64,000 nucleotides of DNA from a bacterium (GTDB lineage: Bacteria > Patescibacteriota > Minisyncoccia > Phycocordibacterales > UBA9973): assembly GCA_037130655.1 (NCBI GenBank), contig JBAXSP010000002.1, forward strand, positions 13,125 through 77,124, given 5' to 3'. The notes beneath the pieces are model-generated. The model saw only the letters and a program-made list of their open reading frames with translations, searched no databases and had not been told where the DNA came from. The stretch's first letter is position 1. Each line of letters begins with the position of its first letter. Both the position numbers and the translations under genes were made by a program. Of the stretch, positions 2,740 to 34,486 are shown one piece after another.

Positions 2740-3345
2740 TTATTGTCTATTTCTGAGCGCATATTTGATCGTATCTGCATCAGAGTATTCGAGCTCCGTA
2801 CCAGTTGAAAGTCCTCGTCCAAGACTGACCAATTTGATGTCAGTACCTTCCAAATAATTTTTCAATGTATTTCTAATATATTCATCGGTATGTGTGCCTG
2901 ATGGAGTCAAAGAAAAAGCCAGAACAATTTCTTTCAATCCGTCTTTTTTCAAATCAACTACACGTTTGACCATTTCTCGTAGACGCAAAAATTCACTCGG
3001 ATTCTTTTCCAAAATCGGCACCAATCCACCGAGCACAAAATAAAAGCCGTTATATGTTTTGCTTTTTCGAAAGGCTTCGAGGTCTGCATCTTTTTCGACA
3101 ATCAATAGGGAAGTTGTATCTTCAGCCGTAGTACAAAACAGACAAATCTCTTGAGGACCAGAGAAAAATCGCTGACACAACGGACAAATTCGCACCCCGT
3201 CTTTCACATGAGTAATTGCATCAGAAAGTGAGTCCAAATACTGTTTGTCTTTGGTCAGCAAGAAATAAACAAAGCGTTTTGATTGACGTTCACCAATTCC
3301 AGGAAATTGTTTGAAATATTCAGCTAGTTTGTCGATAGGGTTCAT
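2740..3345 (-). CDS. recR: recombination protein RecR
   Basis: 201 aa with a C4 zinc finger (CPLCQRF...CLFC) and Toprim-like core typical of RecR. The start is preceded by tctGaTATACT and then 9 nt. Confidence 0.9.
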   Translation of the reverse strand: MNPIDKLAEYFKQFPGIGERQSKRFVYFLLTKDKQYLDSLSDAITHVKDGVRICPLCQRFFSGPQEICLFCTTAEDTTSLLIVEKDADLEAFRKSKTYNGFYFVLGGLVPILEKNPSEFLRLREMVKRVVDLKKDGLKEIVLAFSLTPSGTHTDEYIRNTLKNYLEGTDIKLVSLGRGLSTGTELEYSDADTIKYALRNRQ

Positions 3346-3460
3346 TGAAACTACAGTATATCAGATGATGTTATTTCAGAATATAGAAGCGCGCGACCCA
3401 AGGGTCGCGCGCTTTTACTTGGTCTATATTCTGATATACCAATTACTGAAATACCTTATA

Positions 3461-26617: not shown

Positions 26618-28351
26618 ATGCAACACATTACCCACTTCCGCCAAGGTCTATTGTTGACCTTATTATTTGTATTTCTTTTCGGAAACGAAAAGATCTTAGC
26701 CCAACAAAAGCATTATCCACTCACCGTGGTTGATACTTTTGATTTGTACAAAAAGTACATCAAAAATGACTCTTTCGCCTCTTTTAGTGCTAATGCACTG
26801 ATAGAACAGAGTACGTATTCTCATTTAGTTTTTTATGGTAAAAACCGTGATTTATATTTTTATAAATACGGACCAACACTTACTACTATTGATTCAATAG
26901 CATTTGAATCACCAACCAATCAATCGACACAAAACACTTTTATTTCAAACAACACTGGTTGTATTGTAATGAATTACCGTGGTGTTTATCAGTATGCAAA
27001 GGATGGAAAAGTGACGTGGAAAATTGAAACGGTTGGTGAAAGTTTTTTTCAATCAATCGTACAAGTAACTAATGGGTACATTCTCTGTGGAGGTATTGTA
27101 CAAAATGATAGTTTGTTTAACACACTTTCTTTTATCAATATCGATGGAAGCATCAAATGGCAACGGAATTTTTATAGCTTGCAAAATAGCTATGTATCAA
27201 TTTGCCAGGCATTAGCATATTGCAATAAGCACATATACTTCATGTATGCTGATTCAAATCAAATACGTGCAGATATTAGTGGTAACGGATTAGTCCCTTC
27301 TGCCAAAGTTGTAAAAATTGATTTAGATGGAAACAGTATTACCGAAACAACAGTAGCTGTATCGCCGAGAAGTTTTGTTATCAAAAACAATCAGCCGTTT
27401 TTATTTGGAGATGTTGTTGATGGAACAGGTCAATCACTCTATCGAGTGTATAAAATCGACACCACAACACTTACTGCAACACTGTATTTCAACAATGCAA
27501 CAAATGGATTATTACCTTATGGTGATAAATGGCTTTCGGTCAGCAGTAAAAATGTTCGAAGTGCTGACAAATTGCACAAAGAATTTATTACTTCCATTAG
27601 TGTGTTTGATATCATCGACACAGAAAGCATCAAAACTTCGTATGTTCAGCATTACACCAATGTATTCGATACACTGACTCAAGTAAGTTCAGATATAAAC
27701 AATCTGCAACTAGATGGAGATAACAATATCTTACTTACTTTTACCGTGAATCGAAAGTTTACCAACGGATCAGGATTGTTGTTATACAAAATTGTTTTAA
27801 GAAAAGATACGTTGCCAAATGTTGACTCTCTTTGGGCAACACAAACAACGGTAGCAAAACAAGAAGTAACGATTAGTTGTCAAACACTATTCAAACGAAC
27901 ACTACTTGTTACTGTTTGGAAAAAAGACAATTCTTCAACAATCAAAACATATGTTGATACGAACATTGCAACCAATCATGCTATCAGAAGTTTTTTCTCA
28001 GAACCAGGTGAATATGTATATACTGCGTATGCTATAGGCGGTCCGTACAAAGACACGATTACTTCAAATGAACATTCATTCACTGTTGATGCAGGAACCA
28101 ACGGAATCACACAAACAAACAACGATCAATTGATCAGTGTGTTTCCGAATCCATCGAATGGTAGTGTTGTTTTTGAAATAACTATTCCAGGAAATCTGAC
28201 GGTGTACACACTGGAAGGCAAAATGGTTTTGAATAAAAATATTCAAACCACTACCCCATTGGATATTTCAGTATTCGGTACTGGCATGTATGTATATAAG
28301 TTCTCGACAGATAAAAGCACTCTGACTGGAAAAATCATTGTTCAGCAATAA
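26618..28351 (+). CDS. secreted repeat protein with T9SS-type C-terminal sorting domain (Por_Secre_tail-like)
   Basis: Signal peptide. The last ~70 aa, VFPNPSNGSVVFEITIPGNLTVYTLEGKMVLNKNI...ISVFGTGMYVYKFSTDK...GKIIVQQ, match the PNP...G-l-vyd..G+.v...GvY.v+ pattern of the TIGR04183 CTD. Confidence 0.6.
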   Translation: MQHITHFRQGLLLTLLFVFLFGNEKILAQQKHYPLTVVDTFDLYKKYIKNDSFASFSANALIEQSTYSHLVFYGKNRDLYFYKYGPTLTTIDSIAFESPTNQSTQNTFISNNTGCIVMNYRGVYQYAKDGKVTWKIETVGESFFQSIVQVTNGYILCGGIVQNDSLFNTLSFINIDGSIKWQRNFYSLQNSYVSICQALAYCNKHIYFMYADSNQIRADISGNGLVPSAKVVKIDLDGNSITETTVAVSPRSFVIKNNQPFLFGDVVDGTGQSLYRVYKIDTTTLTATLYFNNATNGLLPYGDKWLSVSSKNVRSADKLHKEFITSISVFDIIDTESIKTSYVQHYTNVFDTLTQVSSDINNLQLDGDNNILLTFTVNRKFTNGSGLLLYKIVLRKDTLPNVDSLWATQTTVAKQEVTISCQTLFKRTLLVTVWKKDNSSTIKTYVDTNIATNHAIRSFFSEPGEYVYTAYAIGGPYKDTITSNEHSFTVDAGTNGITQTNNDQLISVFPNPSNGSVVFEITIPGNLTVYTLEGKMVLNKNIQTTTPLDISVFGTGMYVYKFSTDKSTLTGKIIVQQ

Positions 28352-28892: not shown

Positions 28893-28927
28893 AAAAGCTC
28901 TGCATTTTTGCAGAGCTTTCTTTTTTA
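28893..28927. terminator. bidirectional terminator
   Basis: aaaagctctgca-tttt-tgcagagctttcttttt. Confidence 0.7.
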
Positions 28928-30622
28928 AGACCCATGAACCATATCGTGTTTTTCTAACACAATGTGCGATGACATATATTCTTTCGTCGTACCAACTTTC
29001 TTGTTCGGATTGAAAATGTTTTCCGGATCAAACAATTCTTTTGTTTGCTTGAACAGATTCAAAATCTCAGGAGAAAAGATCTTTCCAAGATACGGCGTAC
29101 GAACAAGTCCGTCATTGTGTTCGGCGGTAATTGTTCCATTGAACTCTCGGACCAAATCATAGACTTTTTCAGATAACTCCATAATCACCTCTTTAGTGTG
29201 GGTATCAGTGAAATCCATCAGTGGAATGATATGGAAGTTGCCATTACCTGCGTGTCCGGCAATCGTGTAGACCAACTTGTATTCTGCAAGTAACGCATTG
29301 AGTCTTGGCAAAAATACAGGAAGAAATTCTGGCTTGATACACACATCATCAATAAATGGCGCCGTGTGCTTGCCTTTGACATGTTTACGGAGCATATTGA
29401 AACTTTCTCGTCGCATCCGCCAATACTTTTCTCCATCAGCTTTTGATTTGGTCACCCGTGTTTTGAAACCAAATGATGCAATTTGCTTTTGTGCATTTCT
29501 TGTTGCTCGCTCAACTTCATCTAGATTATTACCAGTAAATTCTGCAATCATGACGAGTTTTGGTACACCGCCAGTTGCCATCATAAACACTTCAGGAATG
29601 AACGAAATTCCCATTTTGATAAATTGCCACAAACTCATTCGCTTCAAGAAATCAGGCATGAACTTCACTGCCAATTTCAAACTATAATCATCGTAACTTT
29701 CGATACTTTCTGGACCAAGCGGAAGAATCGTATCAACCAAATGTCCCAATCGAGAAAGGTCATTCATAAACACAACAAGAAGTCGTGATTCTTTGGTCAC
29801 ATCAGTCAGGTTGAATGTAATCTCTGTAACAATTCCGAGTGTCCCTTGTGAGCCCACAATCAATCTACACAAATCAAAACTTTCGGTTTCTTTATCATAA
29901 ATATTCCACAAATAATAACCGGCAGAATTTTTTGATACTTGCGGTTTTGCAGAAGTTATCAACATGTCGTTATCATTAATCAGTTGCAACAGTTCTTTGT
30001 AGAGTTCTGCTTCGACACTAACCTCTGCGACTTTTTGATAGAGTTCTTTCTTCGTCATTCGTTTGACGGTGTATTCATAGCCATCACGAAAGACGACTTT
30101 CAATTCACGAATCCAGTCTTCAGTCTTGCCAAATTTGATAGACTTTTCTCCACCACTATTGTTCCCTACCATTCCACCAACCGCGCACAATTCCTTTGAT
30201 GCGGTATATGATGGCAAGATCAAATTTTCAGCCAATGTAACTTTTTCAAAATCTCGGTAGAATGTTCCCGGAAGTACAGTCGCATAACCTGTCACTTTGT
30301 GACCATACGACATTTCATCAGTCTTTGTAATCTTCCCAATACCGTTCATATAACGAGACATATCAAGAATGATTGATTCATTGATCGAACCACCTGACAT
30401 ACAAGTTCCTGCACAACGTGGAGTGATTGAGAGAGTCGGATCTTCTTTCTTGTGTTCATTGACCCATTTGACCAACAAACAAACATCAGTGGAATCTTTT
30501 GGAAATACAATCACCTTTGGACGAACTACGAATATACTCGCATCACGAGAATATTTCTCCAATGCTTCGTCACTCATTTCTACATCCCCTCTTATTATGT
30601 TCTTTAAATCGTCGAAATTCAT
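28925..30622 (-). CDS. FAD-linked oxidoreductase (GlcD / D-lactate dehydrogenase family)
   Basis: FAD-binding PCMH domain (CAGTCMSGGS, GGNNSGGEKS) and a FAD-oxidase C-terminal domain. Leaderless: TATACT-ttatat-ATG. Confidence 0.8.
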   Translation of the reverse strand: MNFDDLKNIIRGDVEMSDEALEKYSRDASIFVVRPKVIVFPKDSTDVCLLVKWVNEHKKEDPTLSITPRCAGTCMSGGSINESIILDMSRYMNGIGKITKTDEMSYGHKVTGYATVLPGTFYRDFEKVTLAENLILPSYTASKELCAVGGMVGNNSGGEKSIKFGKTEDWIRELKVVFRDGYEYTVKRMTKKELYQKVAEVSVEAELYKELLQLINDNDMLITSAKPQVSKNSAGYYLWNIYDKETESFDLCRLIVGSQGTLGIVTEITFNLTDVTKESRLLVVFMNDLSRLGHLVDTILPLGPESIESYDDYSLKLAVKFMPDFLKRMSLWQFIKMGISFIPEVFMMATGGVPKLVMIAEFTGNNLDEVERATRNAQKQIASFGFKTRVTKSKADGEKYWRMRRESFNMLRKHVKGKHTAPFIDDVCIKPEFLPVFLPRLNALLAEYKLVYTIAGHAGNGNFHIIPLMDFTDTHTKEVIMELSEKVYDLVREFNGTITAEHNDGLVRTPYLGKIFSPEILNLFKQTKELFDPENIFNPNKKVGTTKEYMSSHIVLEKHDMVHGS

Positions 30623-30750
30623 ATATAAAGTATATCAGAGTATAGATATTCAGAGTATAGACAAAACTATTCGCATATTCGCGCGAATTAGGAAATAAAA
30701 AAAACACAAAAAAAACCCGCACAATGTACGGATTTTCCGTTAGTCGTGCG
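30623..30750 (-). promoter_or_regulatory. upstream module copy A: terminator, ATTCGC-ATTCGCGCGAAT operator-like palindrome, tandem TATACT boxes
   Basis: About 110 nt shared with 32797-32962. Palindrome at 30669-30688; two ctatactctga repeats immediately before the ATG. Confidence 0.55.
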
Positions 30751-30759
30751 GGCTATAAT

Positions 30760-31116
30760 TTATTTCTCTTGTTTTGTATTATTTAAATCTTCTGCGCTAC
30801 AGTCAGCATTCAAGAAAAAGTTATCTCCTTTTTGTAAACAGTTATATTGCTTAGAGGTTACATATACATCTTCAGTACGATTTTTGCCTCCAAATAAGCC
30901 TTCTATGGTTATTACCCAATCTTCATTGTCGGTAACAATATAAGGTTTTAATACCATTGATTTACCACAAGGGATTGTCATAAACATGATGTAATTTCTT
31001 GTTGGTTCATAATGTTTTGAAACTACTTTTCCTTCTTTAAGTTGATTACAACCTGTTGATATAAAAAGTACTAACAAAACAAACAGAGAAATAGCAAAGT
31101 TAATTATTTTTTTCAT
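30760..31116 (-). CDS. lipoprotein, hypothetical
   Basis: MKKIINFAISLFVLLVLFISTGC lipobox. Start set at the internal Met. Preceded by a TTGACA-N17-TATAAT promoter and a 14-bp 5'UTR hairpin. Confidence 0.55.
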   Translation of the reverse strand: MKKIINFAISLFVLLVLFISTGCNQLKEGKVVSKHYEPTRNYIMFMTIPCGKSMVLKPYIVTDNEDWVITIEGLFGGKNRTEDVYVTSKQYNCLQKGDNFFLNADCSAEDLNNTKQEK

Positions 31117-31327
31117 TTTTAGAGTTGGTTTAAGAGAAAAGACCTTATCTACTCTCTTAAACCAACTAGTCAAAATGAATCCTGAAAAGAACTATTATAG
31201 TTATATTATAGCATATAATATAAGTATTTGTCAATAGATATAAAAAGAGGCGGAAAAGCTTTGCTTTTCCGCCTCTTTTTATGTTCTAGCTAGAGCCTAG
31301 ATGCCTAGCACCTATTAGTCTAATTAA

Positions 31328-31834
31328 TTACAGCATTGTCGCTTCTGACATACTGTTTGGAGCTGTCTCCTCCTTCCCTGTTCCTCCGCAAGCTTTGATA
31401 TCAGTCTTGAACGTATCCCAAGCTGATTTACGAACTGATTTGAGTGTTGTACGAGCAGATTTTGAAGCAGTTTCAAAAACTTGTCTTCCAGTCTTACGGG
31501 CCATGTTTCGTTCGTTTGGAGTTGTCTTTGTCCAAGCATCTTTCAAAGATGTAGCACGGGCAGTCAAAGCAGTTTTCATTGAAGCGTTGAATGTATCGAG
31601 TCCGGCAATCAAAGCATTTTCACGCTTTTCAACTGCAGTTCCAGCACAAATTGGATCTGCTGAACTTTTCTTACTAGACATTTTTTCTTTCAAATCACGT
31701 ATGAGTCCCCCTTTGTCTGAATGTTCAACTTCACCTGTTGATGAGGCCGATGTTGTTGTGATCATTTCTTCTGCAAAAGCAACGTTTCCAAGAATCAAAG
31801 AAAGTGCGAGTGTCGATACAAGAAATTTTTTCAT
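31328..31834 (-). CDS. secreted alpha-helical protein, hypothetical
   Basis: Signal peptide MKKFLVSTLALSLILGNVAFA. Start 7 nt after TATAAT. Confidence 0.5.
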   Translation of the reverse strand: MKKFLVSTLALSLILGNVAFAEEMITTTSASSTGEVEHSDKGGLIRDLKEKMSSKKSSADPICAGTAVEKRENALIAGLDTFNASMKTALTARATSLKDAWTKTTPNERNMARKTGRQVFETASKSARTTLKSVRKSAWDTFKTDIKACGGTGKEETAPNSMSEATML

Positions 31835-31932
31835 AATTATGATTATATAGTTATACGAGTAATACATTGATTGTACCATTTAGGCACACTACTTATGACG
31901 AATGACTTTGTGGAAAATTTCTTAGTATAATC

Positions 31933-32796
31933 TTAGAGATTATTGAATAGTTTCAATCGTGCTTCAACTACTTTCTCTATAGCATCAACGGCTGGTTGCA
32001 GAATTTTTGCAGGAGTGATTTCTTCCGGATTTTCTTCCATGAATTTGTCTGTAGCTTCTTTGAAAGCTAAACGGATTTCACTATTGATATGAACAATAGA
32101 AATTCCTGCTTGTATTGCATTAGTAAAATCTTCATCACGAAGCCCTGAACCTCCGTGCAGTACGAGTGGTACACCGGTCACACTCTTAATCTCTGCAACA
32201 AGTTCCGCATCAATATGCGGTTTACCAGACTTGATGAGCCCGTGAATACTACCGACAGATGGAGCGAATAAATCGATACCAGTCATATCAACAAAGTTTT
32301 TTGCATCTTCAGGTTTTGTCAGTACTCCAGCGCCTTCAGGGATACTATCTCGAACAATTGAACCTGAACCGATAAAACCAAGTTCTGCTTCAACCAAAAT
32401 ATCTCTACCGGTTTGACTAGAAACTTCACGTGCATAATCGACACATTGTTTGGTAAGTGCAACATTTTCTTCAAACGGCAATTTTGCAACATCAATAATG
32501 ACCATATCAAATCCTGCATCAATACATTTTTTGACTGATTCGAAACTACCATGATGATCAGCATTTAAGAATATTGGATAATTATCACGGTCACGTATTG
32601 CGTGTACCAATGCAACAACTTCTTCAAGCCCAGCAAATTTTTCTTCACCTTCTGAAACTCCAATAATAACTGGTAAATTGAGCTTCTTTGCTGCGTTGTA
32701 AATACCATGCAATGCTTCTAAATTTGAAATATTAAAATGCCCAATGGCAACCTTGTTTTCCTCTGCTTCTTTGATGTATGTGCGTAGTGTCTTCAT
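31933..32796 (-). CDS. fba: fructose-bisphosphate aldolase, class II
   Basis: HFNISNLEALHGIYNAAKKLNLPVIIGVSEGE, DHHGSFE and LHGGSG motifs of the class II FBA/TBP aldolase family. Start at MKTLRTY (32796), 8 nt after TATACT. Confidence 0.85.
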   Translation of the reverse strand: MKTLRTYIKEAEENKVAIGHFNISNLEALHGIYNAAKKLNLPVIIGVSEGEEKFAGLEEVVALVHAIRDRDNYPIFLNADHHGSFESVKKCIDAGFDMVIIDVAKLPFEENVALTKQCVDYAREVSSQTGRDILVEAELGFIGSGSIVRDSIPEGAGVLTKPEDAKNFVDMTGIDLFAPSVGSIHGLIKSGKPHIDAELVAEIKSVTGVPLVLHGGSGLRDEDFTNAIQAGISIVHINSEIRLAFKEATDKFMEENPEEITPAKILQPAVDAIEKVVEARLKLFNNL

Positions 32797-32962
32797 ATAA
32801 GATAAGTATATCAGAGTATAGATATTCAGAATATAGAAAAACAGGACAGCTTTTACTTGTCCCATTTAAAACTATTCGCCTATTCGCGCGAATTAGGCAA
32901 TAGCGAAATCAAAAAGAAAAAAACCCGCACACTGTGTACGGGGTTTTTTCCGTGCACATTGT
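32797..32962 (-). promoter_or_regulatory. upstream module copy B (terminator, ATTCGCGCGAAT palindrome, tandem -10 boxes)
   Basis: Palindrome at 32874-32893, ctatactctga/ctatattctga repeats, and a terminator hairpin cccgcacactgtgtacgggg serving the upstream gene. Confidence 0.55.
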
Positions 32963-32971
32963 GCGAGTTTG

Positions 32972-33292
32972 TTATTTTATAAGACCACAATTGTAATCAA
33001 TATAAAATTTTGCTCCTCTTCTGTAAAAGATTTTAAACAGACTGTCTTGGAGATCCATTGACCAAGGCACCAGTTTTTTCATATTGAGGAATACATACAA
33101 AATAGTAGCACCTACAGTAATGAGAAAACCGGCAAGATTTACGTATGGATTATCGGAATCTCGCATCATGTCAATTCCTATTATTAAAAATGGAAAGTCC
33201 ATTAATATAATAAGAAGTTTGGCAATGACGCATCCGAGACCTCCCATAGTCTGTTTTTTGGAGTAGAGTTTGTTGAATAATCTTCTTTTCAT
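32972..33292 (-). CDS. small membrane protein, hypothetical
   Basis: 106 aa, 2-3 TM. Preceded by copy 2 of the conserved leader. Confidence 0.5.
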   Translation of the reverse strand: MKRRLFNKLYSKKQTMGGLGCVIAKLLIILMDFPFLIIGIDMMRDSDNPYVNLAGFLITVGATILYVFLNMKKLVPWSMDLQDSLFKIFYRRGAKFYIDYNCGLIK

Positions 33293-33385
33293 TTTGGTAT
33301 TTAATTAATTAATTATGTGGACACAAAGGACATAATCCACTCTGTTCACATAACTAAATAACAATGTATTAATGAACTCTACCTA
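33293..33385 (-). ncRNA. conserved 5' leader element, copy 2
   Basis: Minus-strand leader gtagagttcattaatacattgttatttagttatgtgaacagagtggattatgtcctttgtgtccacataattaattaattaa-ATG, with a TTGACA-N18-TGgTATACT promoter upstream. Confidence 0.5.
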
Positions 33386-33481
33386 TATAAGTATACCATA
33401 CTATATGAATATTTGTCAATAGACTGAATTTTTATCACTTTCCCCTACATTATAAGAATAGTACTCTGATATACTTATTTC

Positions 33482-34486
33482 ATGAACTTATTTGGAAATA
33501 AATCCTATGACATTGTATGTATCGGAGACATTGTGACCGATGCTTTTATTAGACTTAAAGATGCGAATGTGCACTGCAAGATTGATCAAACTGCTTGTGA
33601 GCTTTGTGTACGTTTTGGTGACAAAGTACCATTCGAGTCTTCGACTATCGTGCGAGCTGTCGGTAACAGCGCAAATGCTGCCGTCTCAGCTTCACGACTT
33701 GGACTTTCTACTGGATTGATGAGCGTTGTTGGAAATGATGAGGAAGGGAAAAAATGCCTAGAAACATTGAAAGAAAATAATGTTGGAACAGCGTATATGG
33801 AAACTGATCCAAAACTACCGACCAATTATCACTATGTACTTTGGTACGATGTTGAACGAACAATCTTAGTTAATCACTCGCCTTTTGAACGACATATTCC
33901 AAAAAACTTCAAAGCACCAAAATGGATTTATCTGACATCACTCGGAGAAAACACTGAGGCATTTCATCACGAAATAACTGCCTGGCTCAAAGCACATCCA
34001 GAAACAAAATTGGTTTTCCAGCCTGGAACATTCCAAATGAAATTAGGAAAAGAACATTTGGCTGATATATATAAAATGAGCGAACTATTCTTTTGTAATG
34101 TCGAAGAAGCACAAAGAATTCTTGGTACACAAGAGGCTGATAAAAAAACGTTGATGAATATGTTGGCAGGACTTGGACCAAAGATTGTCGTGATGACTGA
34201 TGGGATCAATGGTGCGTACGCACGAGACACAGACGGAACATGTTACTTTATGCCGGTGTATCCACATGATCCATACGAACGTACTGGCGCAGGAGACGCA
34301 TTTGCTTCAACTGTCGTGTCAGCACTCGCACTTGGGAAAGATTTGAAAACTGCGCTCACTTGGGGCCCAATCAATTCAATGTCAGTCGTACAAAAAATTG
34401 GCGCACAAGCCGGATTGCTCCCAAGAAAAGAACTTGAAGATTACTTGAGCAAAGCTCCAGAAGATTACAAATTGAAAACTATATAA
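33482..34486 (+). CDS. carbohydrate kinase, PfkB/ribokinase family
   Basis: N-terminal IVCIGDIVTDAF and C-terminal ERTGAGDAFAST (anion hole). Leaderless: TGaTATACT-tatttc-ATG. Confidence 0.8.
   Translation: MNLFGNKSYDIVCIGDIVTDAFIRLKDANVHCKIDQTACELCVRFGDKVPFESSTIVRAVGNSANAAVSASRLGLSTGLMSVVGNDEEGKKCLETLKENNVGTAYMETDPKLPTNYHYVLWYDVERTILVNHSPFERHIPKNFKAPKWIYLTSLGENTEAFHHEITAWLKAHPETKLVFQPGTFQMKLGKEHLADIYKMSELFFCNVEEAQRILGTQEADKKTLMNMLAGLGPKIVVMTDGINGAYARDTDGTCYFMPVYPHDPYERTGAGDAFASTVVSALALGKDLKTALTWGPINSMSVVQKIGAQAGLLPRKELEDYLSKAPEDYKLKTI

What the first reader, a model, noticed from the sequence alone, without database searches (positions are those of the whole stretch)
30623..30750. Duplicated ~110-nt upstream module with a GC-rich palindrome ATTCGCGCGAAT in front of the FAD-oxidase and fba genes
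Two blocks (30623-30750 and 32797-32962) share the same three parts in the same order. First comes a terminator hairpin for the upstream gene. Then comes aaactattcgc(a/c)tattcgcgcgaattagg, which holds a perfect 12-bp palindrome plus an extra direct ATTCGC half-site. Then come two tandem ctatac/tctga(a/t)ata -10-like boxes ending 6-8 nt before the ATG. A CG palindrome like this is unusual in AT-rich sequence and is placed where a -35 would be, so it looks like an operator for a dimeric regulator. Both target genes are sugar/central-carbon enzymes, and neighbouring genes carry partial versions (tctgatatact before recR, the tkt halves and the PfkB kinase).
Basis: seen in the sequence. Interest (0 to 1): 0.6.

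Follow-up and report, generated by a model that had tools for sequence, protein, structure and literature searches.

The report
ArsR-type repressor operator, duplicated before two genes
The GC-rich palindrome in front of the FAD-oxidase and aldolase genes matches the binding site that flanks a small ArsR-family regulator gene in many other Patescibacteria, so it is most likely a repressor operator, while the "boxes" beside the start codons are this genome's ordinary promoters.

Summary
ATTCGCGCGAAT occurs exactly twice in 64 kb, against 0 expected. Each copy sits in a terminator, palindrome, promoter module upstream of a minus-strand gene: the FAD-oxidase gene and fba.

The boxes next to each ATG are extended -10 promoters (TGnTATACT) for leaderless mRNAs. 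This is a genome-wide habit: 26 of 55 genes have a -10 ending 5-9 nt before the start, and none has a Shine-Dalgarno motif.

The palindrome is the core of a 26-bp 12-2-12 inverted repeat, consensus TTCTCTAATTCG-CG-CGAATTAGAGAA. In all ten other patescibacterial lineages I fetched, this repeat or a close variant lies upstream of an 86-95-aa ArsR/SmtB-family gene. In nine it abuts that gene's -10 box. In eight a second copy overlaps the gene's stop codon.

A matrix trained only on those foreign sites scores the two window sites at 30.8 and 26.0 bits. The next best site scores 4.8, and the best of 30 shuffles scores 11.7.

So "operator for a dimeric regulator" is supported, but a conserved sugar regulon is not:
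- 79 of 80 related genomes lack the site near fba.
- The nearest relative lacks it before its FAD-oxidase gene.
- No regulator gene lies in the window, and its presence in this genome is not shown.

Verdict: a new member of a known kind, of moderate interest.

The parts
30716..30752 (-). Intrinsic terminator hairpin of the upstream small ORF (30760-31119), followed by a T-run at 30708-30715
   Evidence: RNA fold of the block gives -33.4 kcal/mol, z -3.5. The terminator scan also flags it. A homologous hairpin is kept upstream of the FAD-oxidase gene in L013.
30670..30695 (.). Operator copy 1: a 26-bp 12-2-12 inverted repeat with core ATTCGCGCGAAT at 30677-30688
   Evidence: Scores 26.0 bits with a matrix trained only on arsR-flanking sites from other organisms. 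Exact core match. A 32-nt stretch spanning it is 31/32 identical to the L013 site.
30667..30674 (-). Second, direct GCGAATAG repeat. Its GCGAA forms the last five bases of the 26-mer's outer arm and its TAG extends 3 nt beyond it.
   Evidence: The same right arm, GCGAATAGGCGAATAG, is found at the arsR promoter of L097. The outer GAA lies 8 nt from the inner GAA, as in the consensus GAATTAGAGAA.
30654..30659 (-). First TATACT box: candidate -10 of a distal promoter whose -35 region is covered by the operator (operator centre at -35.5)
   Evidence: Read directly from the sequence. At arsR promoters the operator centre lies -30.5 to -42.5 from the inferred start. That this box works as a promoter is inferred.
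30629..30637 (-). Extended -10 promoter TGATATACT, ending 6 nt before the FAD-oxidase ATG (30622): a leaderless mRNA promoter
   Evidence: the same architecture is found at 26 of 55 genes, and no gene has a Shine-Dalgarno motif.
28925..30622 (-). FAD-linked oxidase gene (565 aa)
   Evidence: Pfam FAD_binding_4 and FAD-oxidase_C.
32924..32967 (-). Terminator hairpin of the upstream small ORF (32972-33292), followed by a T-run at 32917-32923
32875..32900 (.). Operator copy 2: a 26-bp inverted repeat with core at 32882-32893. The second GCGAATAG repeat lies at 32872-32879.
   Evidence: Scores 30.8 bits. CTAATTCGCGCGAATAGGCGAATAG is identical over 25 nt to the arsR-promoter operator of L097.
32838..32867 (-). 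30-nt insertion with a small hairpin (GGGACA...TGTCC) and a T-run, absent from block 1. It moves the operator away from the promoter.
   Evidence: Alignment and fold. The insertion is also present at the L013 site.
32805..32835 (-). Promoter cassette: TATATT, TATACT and the extended -10 TGATATACT (32805-32813), which ends 8 nt before the fba ATG at 32796
31933..32796 (-). Class II fructose-bisphosphate aldolase gene (287 aa)
   Evidence: Pfam F_bP_aldolase. 80 homologues align over the full length from this start.

Best explanation
The palindrome is the core of a 26-bp 12-2-12 inverted repeat (TTCTCTAATTCG-CG-CGAATTAGAGAA). This repeat is the operator of a small, cysteine-poor ArsR/SmtB-family winged-helix regulator that is widespread in Patescibacteria.

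What is shown: the sequence match to foreign arsR-flanking sites, and the link between this repeat and that regulator gene in other lineages.

What is inferred:
- A regulator dimer, or two dimers, binds the repeat.
- In front of the FAD-oxidase gene the repeat covers the -35 region of a distal TATACT promoter, so binding should repress that promoter.
- The proximal extended -10 promoter, which gives a leaderless mRNA, may stay constitutive.
- In front of fba a 30-nt hairpin insertion has pushed the operator about 29 nt further upstream, so control there is weaker or works differently, for example as a roadblock to read-through.

The two copies arose by copying a short intergenic cassette of operator plus promoter, not by a segmental duplication. 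The signal the regulator senses is unknown.
For: - The exact core occurs twice against 0.00 expected.
- A metagenome scan for TTNCCTAATTCGCGCGAATA gave 7 contigs with GC 32-45% whose flanks continue the motif. One of them (L082) carries two intact copies and one interrupted copy around an ArsR-like gene.
- That protein has more than 1000 relatives, 64-89% identical among the hits listed. Those that carry names are from Liptonbacteria, Colwellbacteria, Azambacteria and Paceibacterota.
- The regulator matches Pfam HTH_5 at 33-38 bits for three of four members tested (cut-off 22). The fourth, P0114, scores 21.5, just below.
- The nearest solved structures are HlyU, CzrA, NolR and BigR.
- In every one of ten lineages fetched (L082, L089, L091, L097, L099, L102, L105, L107, L109, L110) the repeat, or in L107 a co-varying variant, lies upstream of arsR. 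In nine it abuts the -10 box. In L082 that proximal copy is interrupted by a GC-rich insert. In eight lineages a second copy overlaps the stop codon; in L099 and L107 the second copy lies a little way downstream instead.
- A matrix trained only on 14 such foreign sites scores the window sites at 30.8 and 26.0 bits. The next best site scores 4.8, and the best of 30 shuffles scores 11.7.
- The window's CTAATTCGCGCGAATAGGCGAATAG is identical to the L097 arsR-promoter operator.
- A 32-nt stretch spanning the palindrome is 31/32 identical between the window and its nearest relative L013, whose alignable regions are about 73-92% identical, mostly 80-88%.
- In 6 of 80 Nomurabacteria relatives a paralogous ArsR gene with a related palindrome sits between fba and the FAD-oxidase gene, immediately upstream of it in three of them.
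- ArsR/SmtB regulators are known to bind 12-2-12 repeats over the -35 region or the start site, sometimes with the regulator gene encoded far away (PMC8790569).
Against: - No gene of this regulator family lies in the 64-kb window, and none of the named homologues is from Nomurabacteria. The regulator's presence in this genome is therefore unproven.
- The site is not conserved upstream of fba in 79 of 80 related genomes, nor upstream of the FAD-oxidase gene in the closest relative.
- In block 2 the operator is about 64-90 nt upstream of the promoters, which is atypical for a repressor.
- Some copies elsewhere lie inside coding regions (mnmA, dinB) or between convergent genes.
- No binding or expression data exist.
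Confidence: 0.65

Rival explanations
1. The palindrome is a non-functional passenger. A short promoter cassette was recently copied from one intergenic region to the other, the palindrome travelled with it, and it has no regulator in this genome.
For: - The nearest relative L013 keeps the homologous terminator upstream of its FAD-oxidase gene, but has neither the palindrome nor the tandem boxes there.
- The two copies are 94-97% identical, while the flanking ORFs are unrelated.
- No regulator gene lies in the window.
Against: - A 32-nt stretch spanning the palindrome is 31/32 identical between two species whose alignable regions are mostly 80-88% identical.
- It matches foreign operators over 25-26 nt. 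Neutral sequence would not be expected to keep such a match.
Confidence: 0.15
2. It is a mobile palindromic element, of the REP or MITE type, that spreads within and between genomes, possibly moved by a Y1 transposase, rather than a transcription-factor site.
For: - Copies lie inside coding regions (L083, L084/L085 mnmA, L097 dinB), between convergent genes (L088) and after terminators.
- Insertions split the arms in L013 and L082.
- A Y1_Tnp gene lies next to one site in L102.
Against: - The copy number is very low: 2 in 64 kb, and 2-5 per 20-kb arsR locus.
- Copies sit at fixed positions relative to the arsR promoter and stop codon across ten lineages.
- No target-site duplications are visible.
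- Only one locus has a transposase gene nearby.
Confidence: 0.08
3. It is a second, tandem intrinsic terminator. The left half of the palindrome pairs with the extra GCGAAT, and a TTTT tail follows.
For: - The terminator scan flags both sites as terminator-like.
- A T-run follows the element in both window copies and in L087.
Against: - The hairpins are weak: -6.9 and -13.5 kcal/mol, with z about -1.
- Sequence, not just structure, is conserved across distant lineages.
- Many copies have no T-run and lie directly against a -10 box.
Confidence: 0.07
4. It is a parS- or Noc-like chromosome-organisation site bound by a ParB-family protein. The half-site TAATTCGC resembles TGTTTCAC (parS) and TATTTCCC (the Noc-binding site).
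For: - The resemblance to parS and Noc-binding sites is recalled from my own knowledge only.
- Occasional copies lie inside genes.
Against: - The systematic association is with an ArsR gene, not with parB.
- No ParB link was seen.
- The search for canonical parS in the window was uninformative.
Confidence: 0.03

Closest known systems
ArsR/SmtB-family repressors and their 12-2-12 inverted-repeat operators (SmtB, CzrA, AzuR, ZiaR)
   Same: - A small dimeric wHTH protein that matches Pfam HTH_5.
- A 26-bp 12-2-12 imperfect inverted repeat.
- An operator overlapping the -35 region or the start site of the regulator's own promoter (autoregulation).
- Additional sites at remote targets and inside genes, as also reported in PMC8790569.
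   Different: - No conserved Cys or His metal-binding motif (alpha3N or alpha5) in the alignment, so it is probably not a metal sensor.
- The operator sequence TTCTCTAATTCGCGCGAATTAGAGAA is unrelated to the TGAACA/TGTTCA type.
- The second operator is fused to the regulator's own stop codon.
- The targets are leaderless genes of unknown or housekeeping function.
HlyU/BigR/NolR-type non-metal ArsR regulators
   Same: They are the closest solved structures by sequence (E 3e-6 to 7e-3). They are small ArsR-fold proteins that respond to non-metal signals.
   Different: HlyU and BigR use a cysteine pair as a redox or persulfide switch. The patescibacterial family has no conserved cysteine.
Extended -10 (TGnTATAAT) promoters driving leaderless mRNAs, as in Actinobacteria and Deinococcus
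   Same: The -10 hexamer ends 5-9 nt before the ATG at 26 of 55 genes, 12 of them carry the TG extension, and no gene has a Shine-Dalgarno motif.
   Different: Here the promoter is tandemly reiterated (three TATACT-like boxes) at the two genes and at recR. Transcription start sites have not been mapped in this organism.

Membership tests
ArsR/SmtB repressor-operator system | The cognate protein has the ArsR-type winged helix-turn-helix fold | tested here: met
   P0001, P0017 and P0088 match Pfam HTH_5 at 33-38 bits (cut-off 22); P0114 scores 21.5, just below. The PDB search finds HlyU, CzrA and NolR. These proteins come from other organisms, not from the window.
ArsR/SmtB repressor-operator system | The operator is a 12-2-12 imperfect inverted repeat | tested here: met
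   The consensus of 14 sites is TTCTCTAATTCG-CG-CGAATTAGAGAA. The window sites score 30.8 and 26.0 bits. The definition is taken from PMC8790569.
ArsR/SmtB repressor-operator system | The operator overlaps the promoter of the regulator's own gene (autoregulation) | tested here: met
   In nine of ten lineages the repeat abuts the extended -10 box of arsR; in L107 it lies further upstream. In L082 the proximal copy is interrupted by an insert. Where computed, the operator centre lies -30.5 to -42.5 from the inferred start.
ArsR/SmtB repressor-operator system | The regulator gene is present in the same genome as the operator | not testable with these tools
   tblastn finds no homologue in the 64-kb window. 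The rest of the genome is not available. No named Nomurabacteria homologue appears in the top hits.
ArsR/SmtB repressor-operator system | The protein binds the DNA, and an effector releases it | not testable with these tools
   This needs EMSA or DAP-seq. No conserved metal or redox ligands are seen.
   79 of 80 fba loci lack the site within 10 kb. L013 has it before a TMEM175-like gene and lacks it before its FAD-oxidase gene.
Known RNA families (Rfam) | A match at or above a family's gathering score | tested here: not met
   Only sub-threshold matches to terminator-rich families (leader peptides, small RNAs) across 30400-33600.
REP/MITE-type mobile palindromes | Many dispersed copies per genome, target-site duplications and an associated transposase | tested here: inconclusive
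   Only 2 copies in 64 kb and 1 in 1.25 Mb of related loci. No duplications are visible. One Y1_Tnp gene lies beside a site in L102. Whole genomes were not available.

The most novel reading that the evidence does not exclude
A single small ArsR-family regulator with a nearly invariant 26-bp operator is shared across much of the Patescibacteria.
- It always brackets its own gene with two operators, one of them usually fused to its stop codon.
- It controls a recurring set of about 590-aa zinc-ribbon proteins of unknown function.
- Its operator-plus-leaderless-promoter cassette can be copied in front of new genes. Here that wires the FAD-oxidase gene and fba into the regulon.

If so, this would be one of the first cross-lineage transcriptional regulons defined for these uncultivated, transcription-factor-poor bacteria. 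I found no description of it in the searchable literature.
Probability: 0.5. Interest if true: 0.6.

Novelty: new member of a known kind. Interest (0 to 1): 0.45.

Why it matters
Patescibacteria have tiny genomes, very few transcription factors and almost no experimentally defined regulation.

A regulator-operator pair that can be recognised by sequence alone across many lineages gives a direct handle on what these organisms regulate. Candidate targets seen here are an FAD-linked oxidase, aldolase, a family of unknown zinc-ribbon proteins, acylphosphatase and dinB.

The pair is easy to test in vitro, because the protein is only 86-95 aa and the site only 26 bp.

It also shows how a short cassette of operator plus leaderless promoter can be copied to rewire individual genes between closely related species.

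For the window itself the practical result is more modest: two probable repressor sites and a set of ordinary promoters.

Tried and rejected
- Rfam scan of 30400-33600: nothing reached a gathering score.
- RNA folding of the palindrome alone: weak hairpins, z about -1, so I rejected a structured RNA or a strong terminator.
- Canonical parS search in the window: only 3-mismatch matches, 8 found against 3.85 expected, so uninformative.
- Literature search for the motif string: only eukaryotic E2F sites and unrelated hits. Searches for Patescibacteria with ArsR and regulon, and for CPR with leaderless promoters, found nothing relevant.
- Exact look-up of the fba protein found no record. The FAD-oxidase protein found one near-identical Logan contig (L001), which adds no divergence.
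- Phylogenetic footprinting upstream of fba in 80 GTDB relatives: the palindrome is not conserved there. In many of them fba follows another gene directly and is served by a -10-like box in that gene's 3' end.
- Larger segmental duplication: rejected, because only three short intergenic pieces match and the adjacent ORFs are unrelated.
- The idea that both operators lie on the same helical face: rejected. Measured to the ATG the two distances differ by 31 nt, but measured to the -10 box they differ by 29 nt, which is not a whole number of helical turns.
- tblastn for the regulator in the window, and a second homologue search aimed at finding a Nomurabacteria member: neither showed that this organism has the regulator.
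- Two quick regular-expression scans for the paralogue's operator type were mis-specified and gave counts close to shuffled expectation, so I did not use them.

Full report
**Observation**

All genes concerned lie on the minus strand:
- the FAD-linked oxidase gene, 28925-30622;
- two small secreted or lipoprotein-like ORFs, 30760-31119 and 31328-31837;
- class II fba, 31933-32796;
- a small ORF, 32972-33292.

- a terminator hairpin with a T-run for the upstream ORF;
- CCTAATTCGCGCGAATA(T/G)GCGAATAGTTTT;
- a reiterated TATACT/TGATATACT region ending 6 nt (FAD-oxidase gene) or 8 nt (fba) before the ATG.

The exact 12-mer occurs at 30677-30688 and 32882-32893 only, against 0.00 expected in shuffles. 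Pairwise comparison of the two regions finds only three short intergenic matches: 34 nt at 97%, 35 nt at 94% and 15 nt at 100%. The neighbouring ORFs are unrelated. The blocks are therefore a duplicated intergenic cassette, not part of a larger segmental duplication. Block 2 has an additional 30-nt hairpin insertion (32838-32867) between the palindrome and the promoter.

**Organism and promoters**

The fba relatives found in GTDB genomes are Candidatus Nomurabacteria and Paceibacteria, which belong to the Patescibacteria.

In the window, TGnTA(T/C)A(A/C)T motifs lie a few bases upstream of many start codons. Among 55 genes with clear starts:
- 26 have a TANNNT hexamer ending 5-9 nt before the start;
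- 12 of those carry the TG extension;
- none has a Shine-Dalgarno-like motif.

The boxes next to the ATGs, and the 'partial versions' before recR, the tkt halves and the PfkB kinase gene, are therefore this genome's ordinary extended -10 promoters for leaderless mRNAs. The same arrangement is seen upstream of fba in the relatives.

**Comparative test of the 'carbon regulon' idea**

Upstream of fba in 80 related species the palindrome is absent. Within 1.25 Mb of these loci it occurs once, in L013.

L013 belongs to the same genus by these measures: its FAD-oxidase protein is 97% identical, DNA identity is about 83% over the large syntenic blocks, and gene order is the same. In L013:
- the palindrome follows a terminator and precedes a TMEM175-like channel gene and an AI-2E transporter gene;
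- a 120-nt insertion lies between the palindrome and the GCGAAT(G)G repeat;
- the FAD-oxidase gene keeps the homologous terminator hairpin but has a plain TTATAAT promoter, with no palindrome and no tandem boxes.

So the link to these two genes is recent and lineage-specific. Even so, a 32-nt stretch spanning the palindrome is 31/32 identical between the two species.

**What the palindrome is**

A metagenome scan for TTNCCTAATTCGCGCGAATA returned seven contigs with GC of 32-45%. Their flanks continue the motif (GAATA[A/G]G[A/C]GAATRG) and extend the symmetry. One of them, L082, carries two intact copies and one interrupted copy around a 90-aa ArsR-like gene.

That protein belongs to a very large family. 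It has more than 1000 clusters, 64-89% identical among the hits listed. Named members come from Liptonbacteria, Colwellbacteria, Azambacteria and Paceibacterota. Three of four members tested match Pfam HTH_5 at 33-38 bits, above the cut-off of 22; P0114 scores 21.5, just below. The nearest solved structures are HlyU, CzrA, NolR and BigR.

I fetched the gene neighbourhoods of nine further family members: L089, L091, L097, L099, L102, L105, L107, L109 and L110. With L082 that makes ten lineages. In every one of them:
- The inverted repeat lies upstream of the regulator gene. In nine lineages it sits directly against the extended -10 box, for example L091 TCTCTAATTCGCGCGAATTAGAGAATGATGTATAATtgattttATG. 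In L107 it lies further upstream, and in L082 the proximal copy is interrupted by a GC-rich insert.
- A second copy lies at the 3' end. In eight lineages it overlaps the stop codon (TCT CTT CTC TAA ttcgcgcgaat...). In L099 and L107 it lies a short distance downstream of the stop.

L107 carries a co-varying variant, TTTACCCATTCGCACGAATGGGTAAA, on both sides.

The consensus is TTCTCTAATTCG-CG-CGAATTAGAGAA. This is a 12-2-12 repeat, the operator format described for ArsR/SmtB repressors, which bind over the -35 region or the start site and sometimes act on remote genes (PMC8790569).

A position weight matrix built only from 14 such foreign sites gives these scores in the window:

| Site | Score (bits) |
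|---|---|
| 32875-32900 | 30.8 |
| 30670-30695 | 26.0 |
| Next best site in the window | 4.8 |
| Best of 30 shuffles | 11.7 |

The window's extra 'half-site' is part of the outer arm. CTAATTCGCGCGAATAGGCGAATAG is identical over 25 nt to the arsR-promoter operator of L097.

**Other targets elsewhere**

In other lineages the motif also precedes:
- paralogous proteins of about 585-610 aa with treble-clef zinc fingers and unknown function (L091, L102, L109, L110);
- acylphosphatase, dinB, a LigT-like protein, an HAD hydrolase and a gene whose product looks like an inorganic pyrophosphatase (judged by eye, not searched).

A few copies lie inside coding regions.

In 6 of 80 Nomurabacteria relatives a paralogous ArsR gene, 31-40% identical over the aligned segments, lies between fba and the FAD-oxidase gene. 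In three of them it is immediately upstream of the FAD-oxidase gene. It has a related palindrome (ATTCTAAYRTTC-N4-GAAYRTTAGAAT) both upstream and over its own stop codon. This independently ties the FAD-oxidase gene to ArsR-type control in this group.

**Mechanism in the window (inferred)**

| Reference point | Block 1 (centre 30682/30683) | Block 2 (centre 32887/32888) |
|---|---|---|
| Start inferred from the first box (TATACT at 30654-30659; TATATT at 32830-32835) | -35.5 | -64.5 |
| Start inferred from the leaderless extended -10 promoter | -60.5 | -89.5 |

The block 1 value of -35.5 falls within the -30.5 to -42.5 range seen at arsR promoters. The most likely model is repression of a distal promoter of the FAD-oxidase gene by a bound ArsR dimer or pair of dimers. 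Control at fba would be weaker or different.

**Caveats**

- The regulator gene is not in the window, and I could not show it in this genome.
- No binding or expression data exist.
- Rfam and RNA folding give no support for an RNA element.
- The terminator scan flags the palindrome plus the extra repeat only as a weak terminator-like hairpin.

**Verdict**

The 'operator for a dimeric regulator' reading is supported, and I can now name the probable regulator family. The 'sugar regulon' reading and the 'special -10 boxes' reading are not supported. This is a new member of a known kind, of moderate interest.

Noticed in passing
window 3340-3445 (minus strand, between dnaB and recR): The recR promoter carries the same TCTATATTCTGAAATA...TCTGATATACT cassette as fba and the FAD-oxidase gene. 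Upstream of it lie a GC hairpin (GCGCGCGACCCttGGGTCGCGCGC) and an inverted copy of the cassette (TATATCAGAATATAGA). That inverted copy reads as an outward-facing extended -10 promoter, antisense to the 3' end of dnaB. The motif AAGTAAAAGC next to the hairpin is shared with the 30-nt insertion in block 2.
   Followed up: partly
whole window (55 gene starts): Gene starts look leaderless across the window: 26 of 55 genes have a -10 hexamer ending 5-9 nt before the start codon, 12 of those have a TG extension, and none has a Shine-Dalgarno-like motif.
   Followed up: yes
window 26618-28351 (+): A 577-aa protein has a C-terminal Por_Secre_tail (type IX secretion sorting) domain, which is normally a Bacteroidota feature, in a patescibacterial genome. 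The gene is also present in the near-identical contig L001.
   Followed up: no
L002-L081 (fba at about 10001 in most loci): Having fba followed by the FAD-linked oxidase gene is conserved in most of the 80 Nomurabacteria/Paceibacteria genomes, often with only 20-30 nt between the two genes. In the window and in L013, small secreted-protein ORFs have been inserted between them.
   Followed up: partly
L016, L020, L033, L049, L060, L081 (between fba and the FAD-oxidase gene): A second ArsR subfamily lies here, with its own palindrome (ATTCTAAYRTTC-N4-GAAYRTTAGAAT) upstream of the gene and over its own stop codon. This is the same 'operator - regulator gene - operator at the stop codon' layout as in the main family.
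   Followed up: partly
L091, L102, L109, L110 (downstream of, or beside, arsR): Paralogous genes for proteins of about 585-610 aa recur here. Their only detectable feature is a treble-clef zinc finger, and each is preceded by the operator. They look like the conserved core of the regulon, and their function is unknown.
   Followed up: partly
L084:230-255, L085:2461-2486 (mnmA), L097:10757-10782 (dinB), L083:464-489: High-scoring operator copies lie inside coding regions. In mnmA and in the L083 tail-fibre-like protein the motif is read as the peptide YSRELG. Whether these are functional intragenic sites, in-frame insertions or chance is unresolved.
   Followed up: no
L013:8030-8150: A 120-nt insertion with its own inverted repeats (ATTTCGTCCTCGAC ... 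CTCGACGAAAT) separates the palindrome from its outer GCGAAT repeat. In L082 a GC-rich insertion of about 40 nt splits another copy, and L087 has a 49-nt tandem duplication abutting the site. The palindrome seems to be a hotspot for insertion and slippage.
   Followed up: no
L102:7039-7642: The start of a second arsR-like reading frame (MRDLEKVLKALANRR...), preceded by the operator, lies immediately next to an oppositely oriented Y1_Tnp (IS200/IS605-type) transposase gene. It may have been disrupted by that gene.
   Followed up: no
window 31186-31237 and 33286-33428; L013:11524-11661: Another repeated intergenic cassette: a consensus TTGACA-N18-TATAAT promoter plus leader, upstream of the small secreted or membrane ORFs. 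Unlike most genes here, it has a canonical -35 box.
   Followed up: no
window compared with L013: The FAD-oxidase protein is 97% identical between the two species at about 83% DNA identity, which indicates very strong purifying selection. The adjacent fba is only 84% identical at the protein level, which hints at recombination or different histories for neighbouring genes.
   Followed up: no
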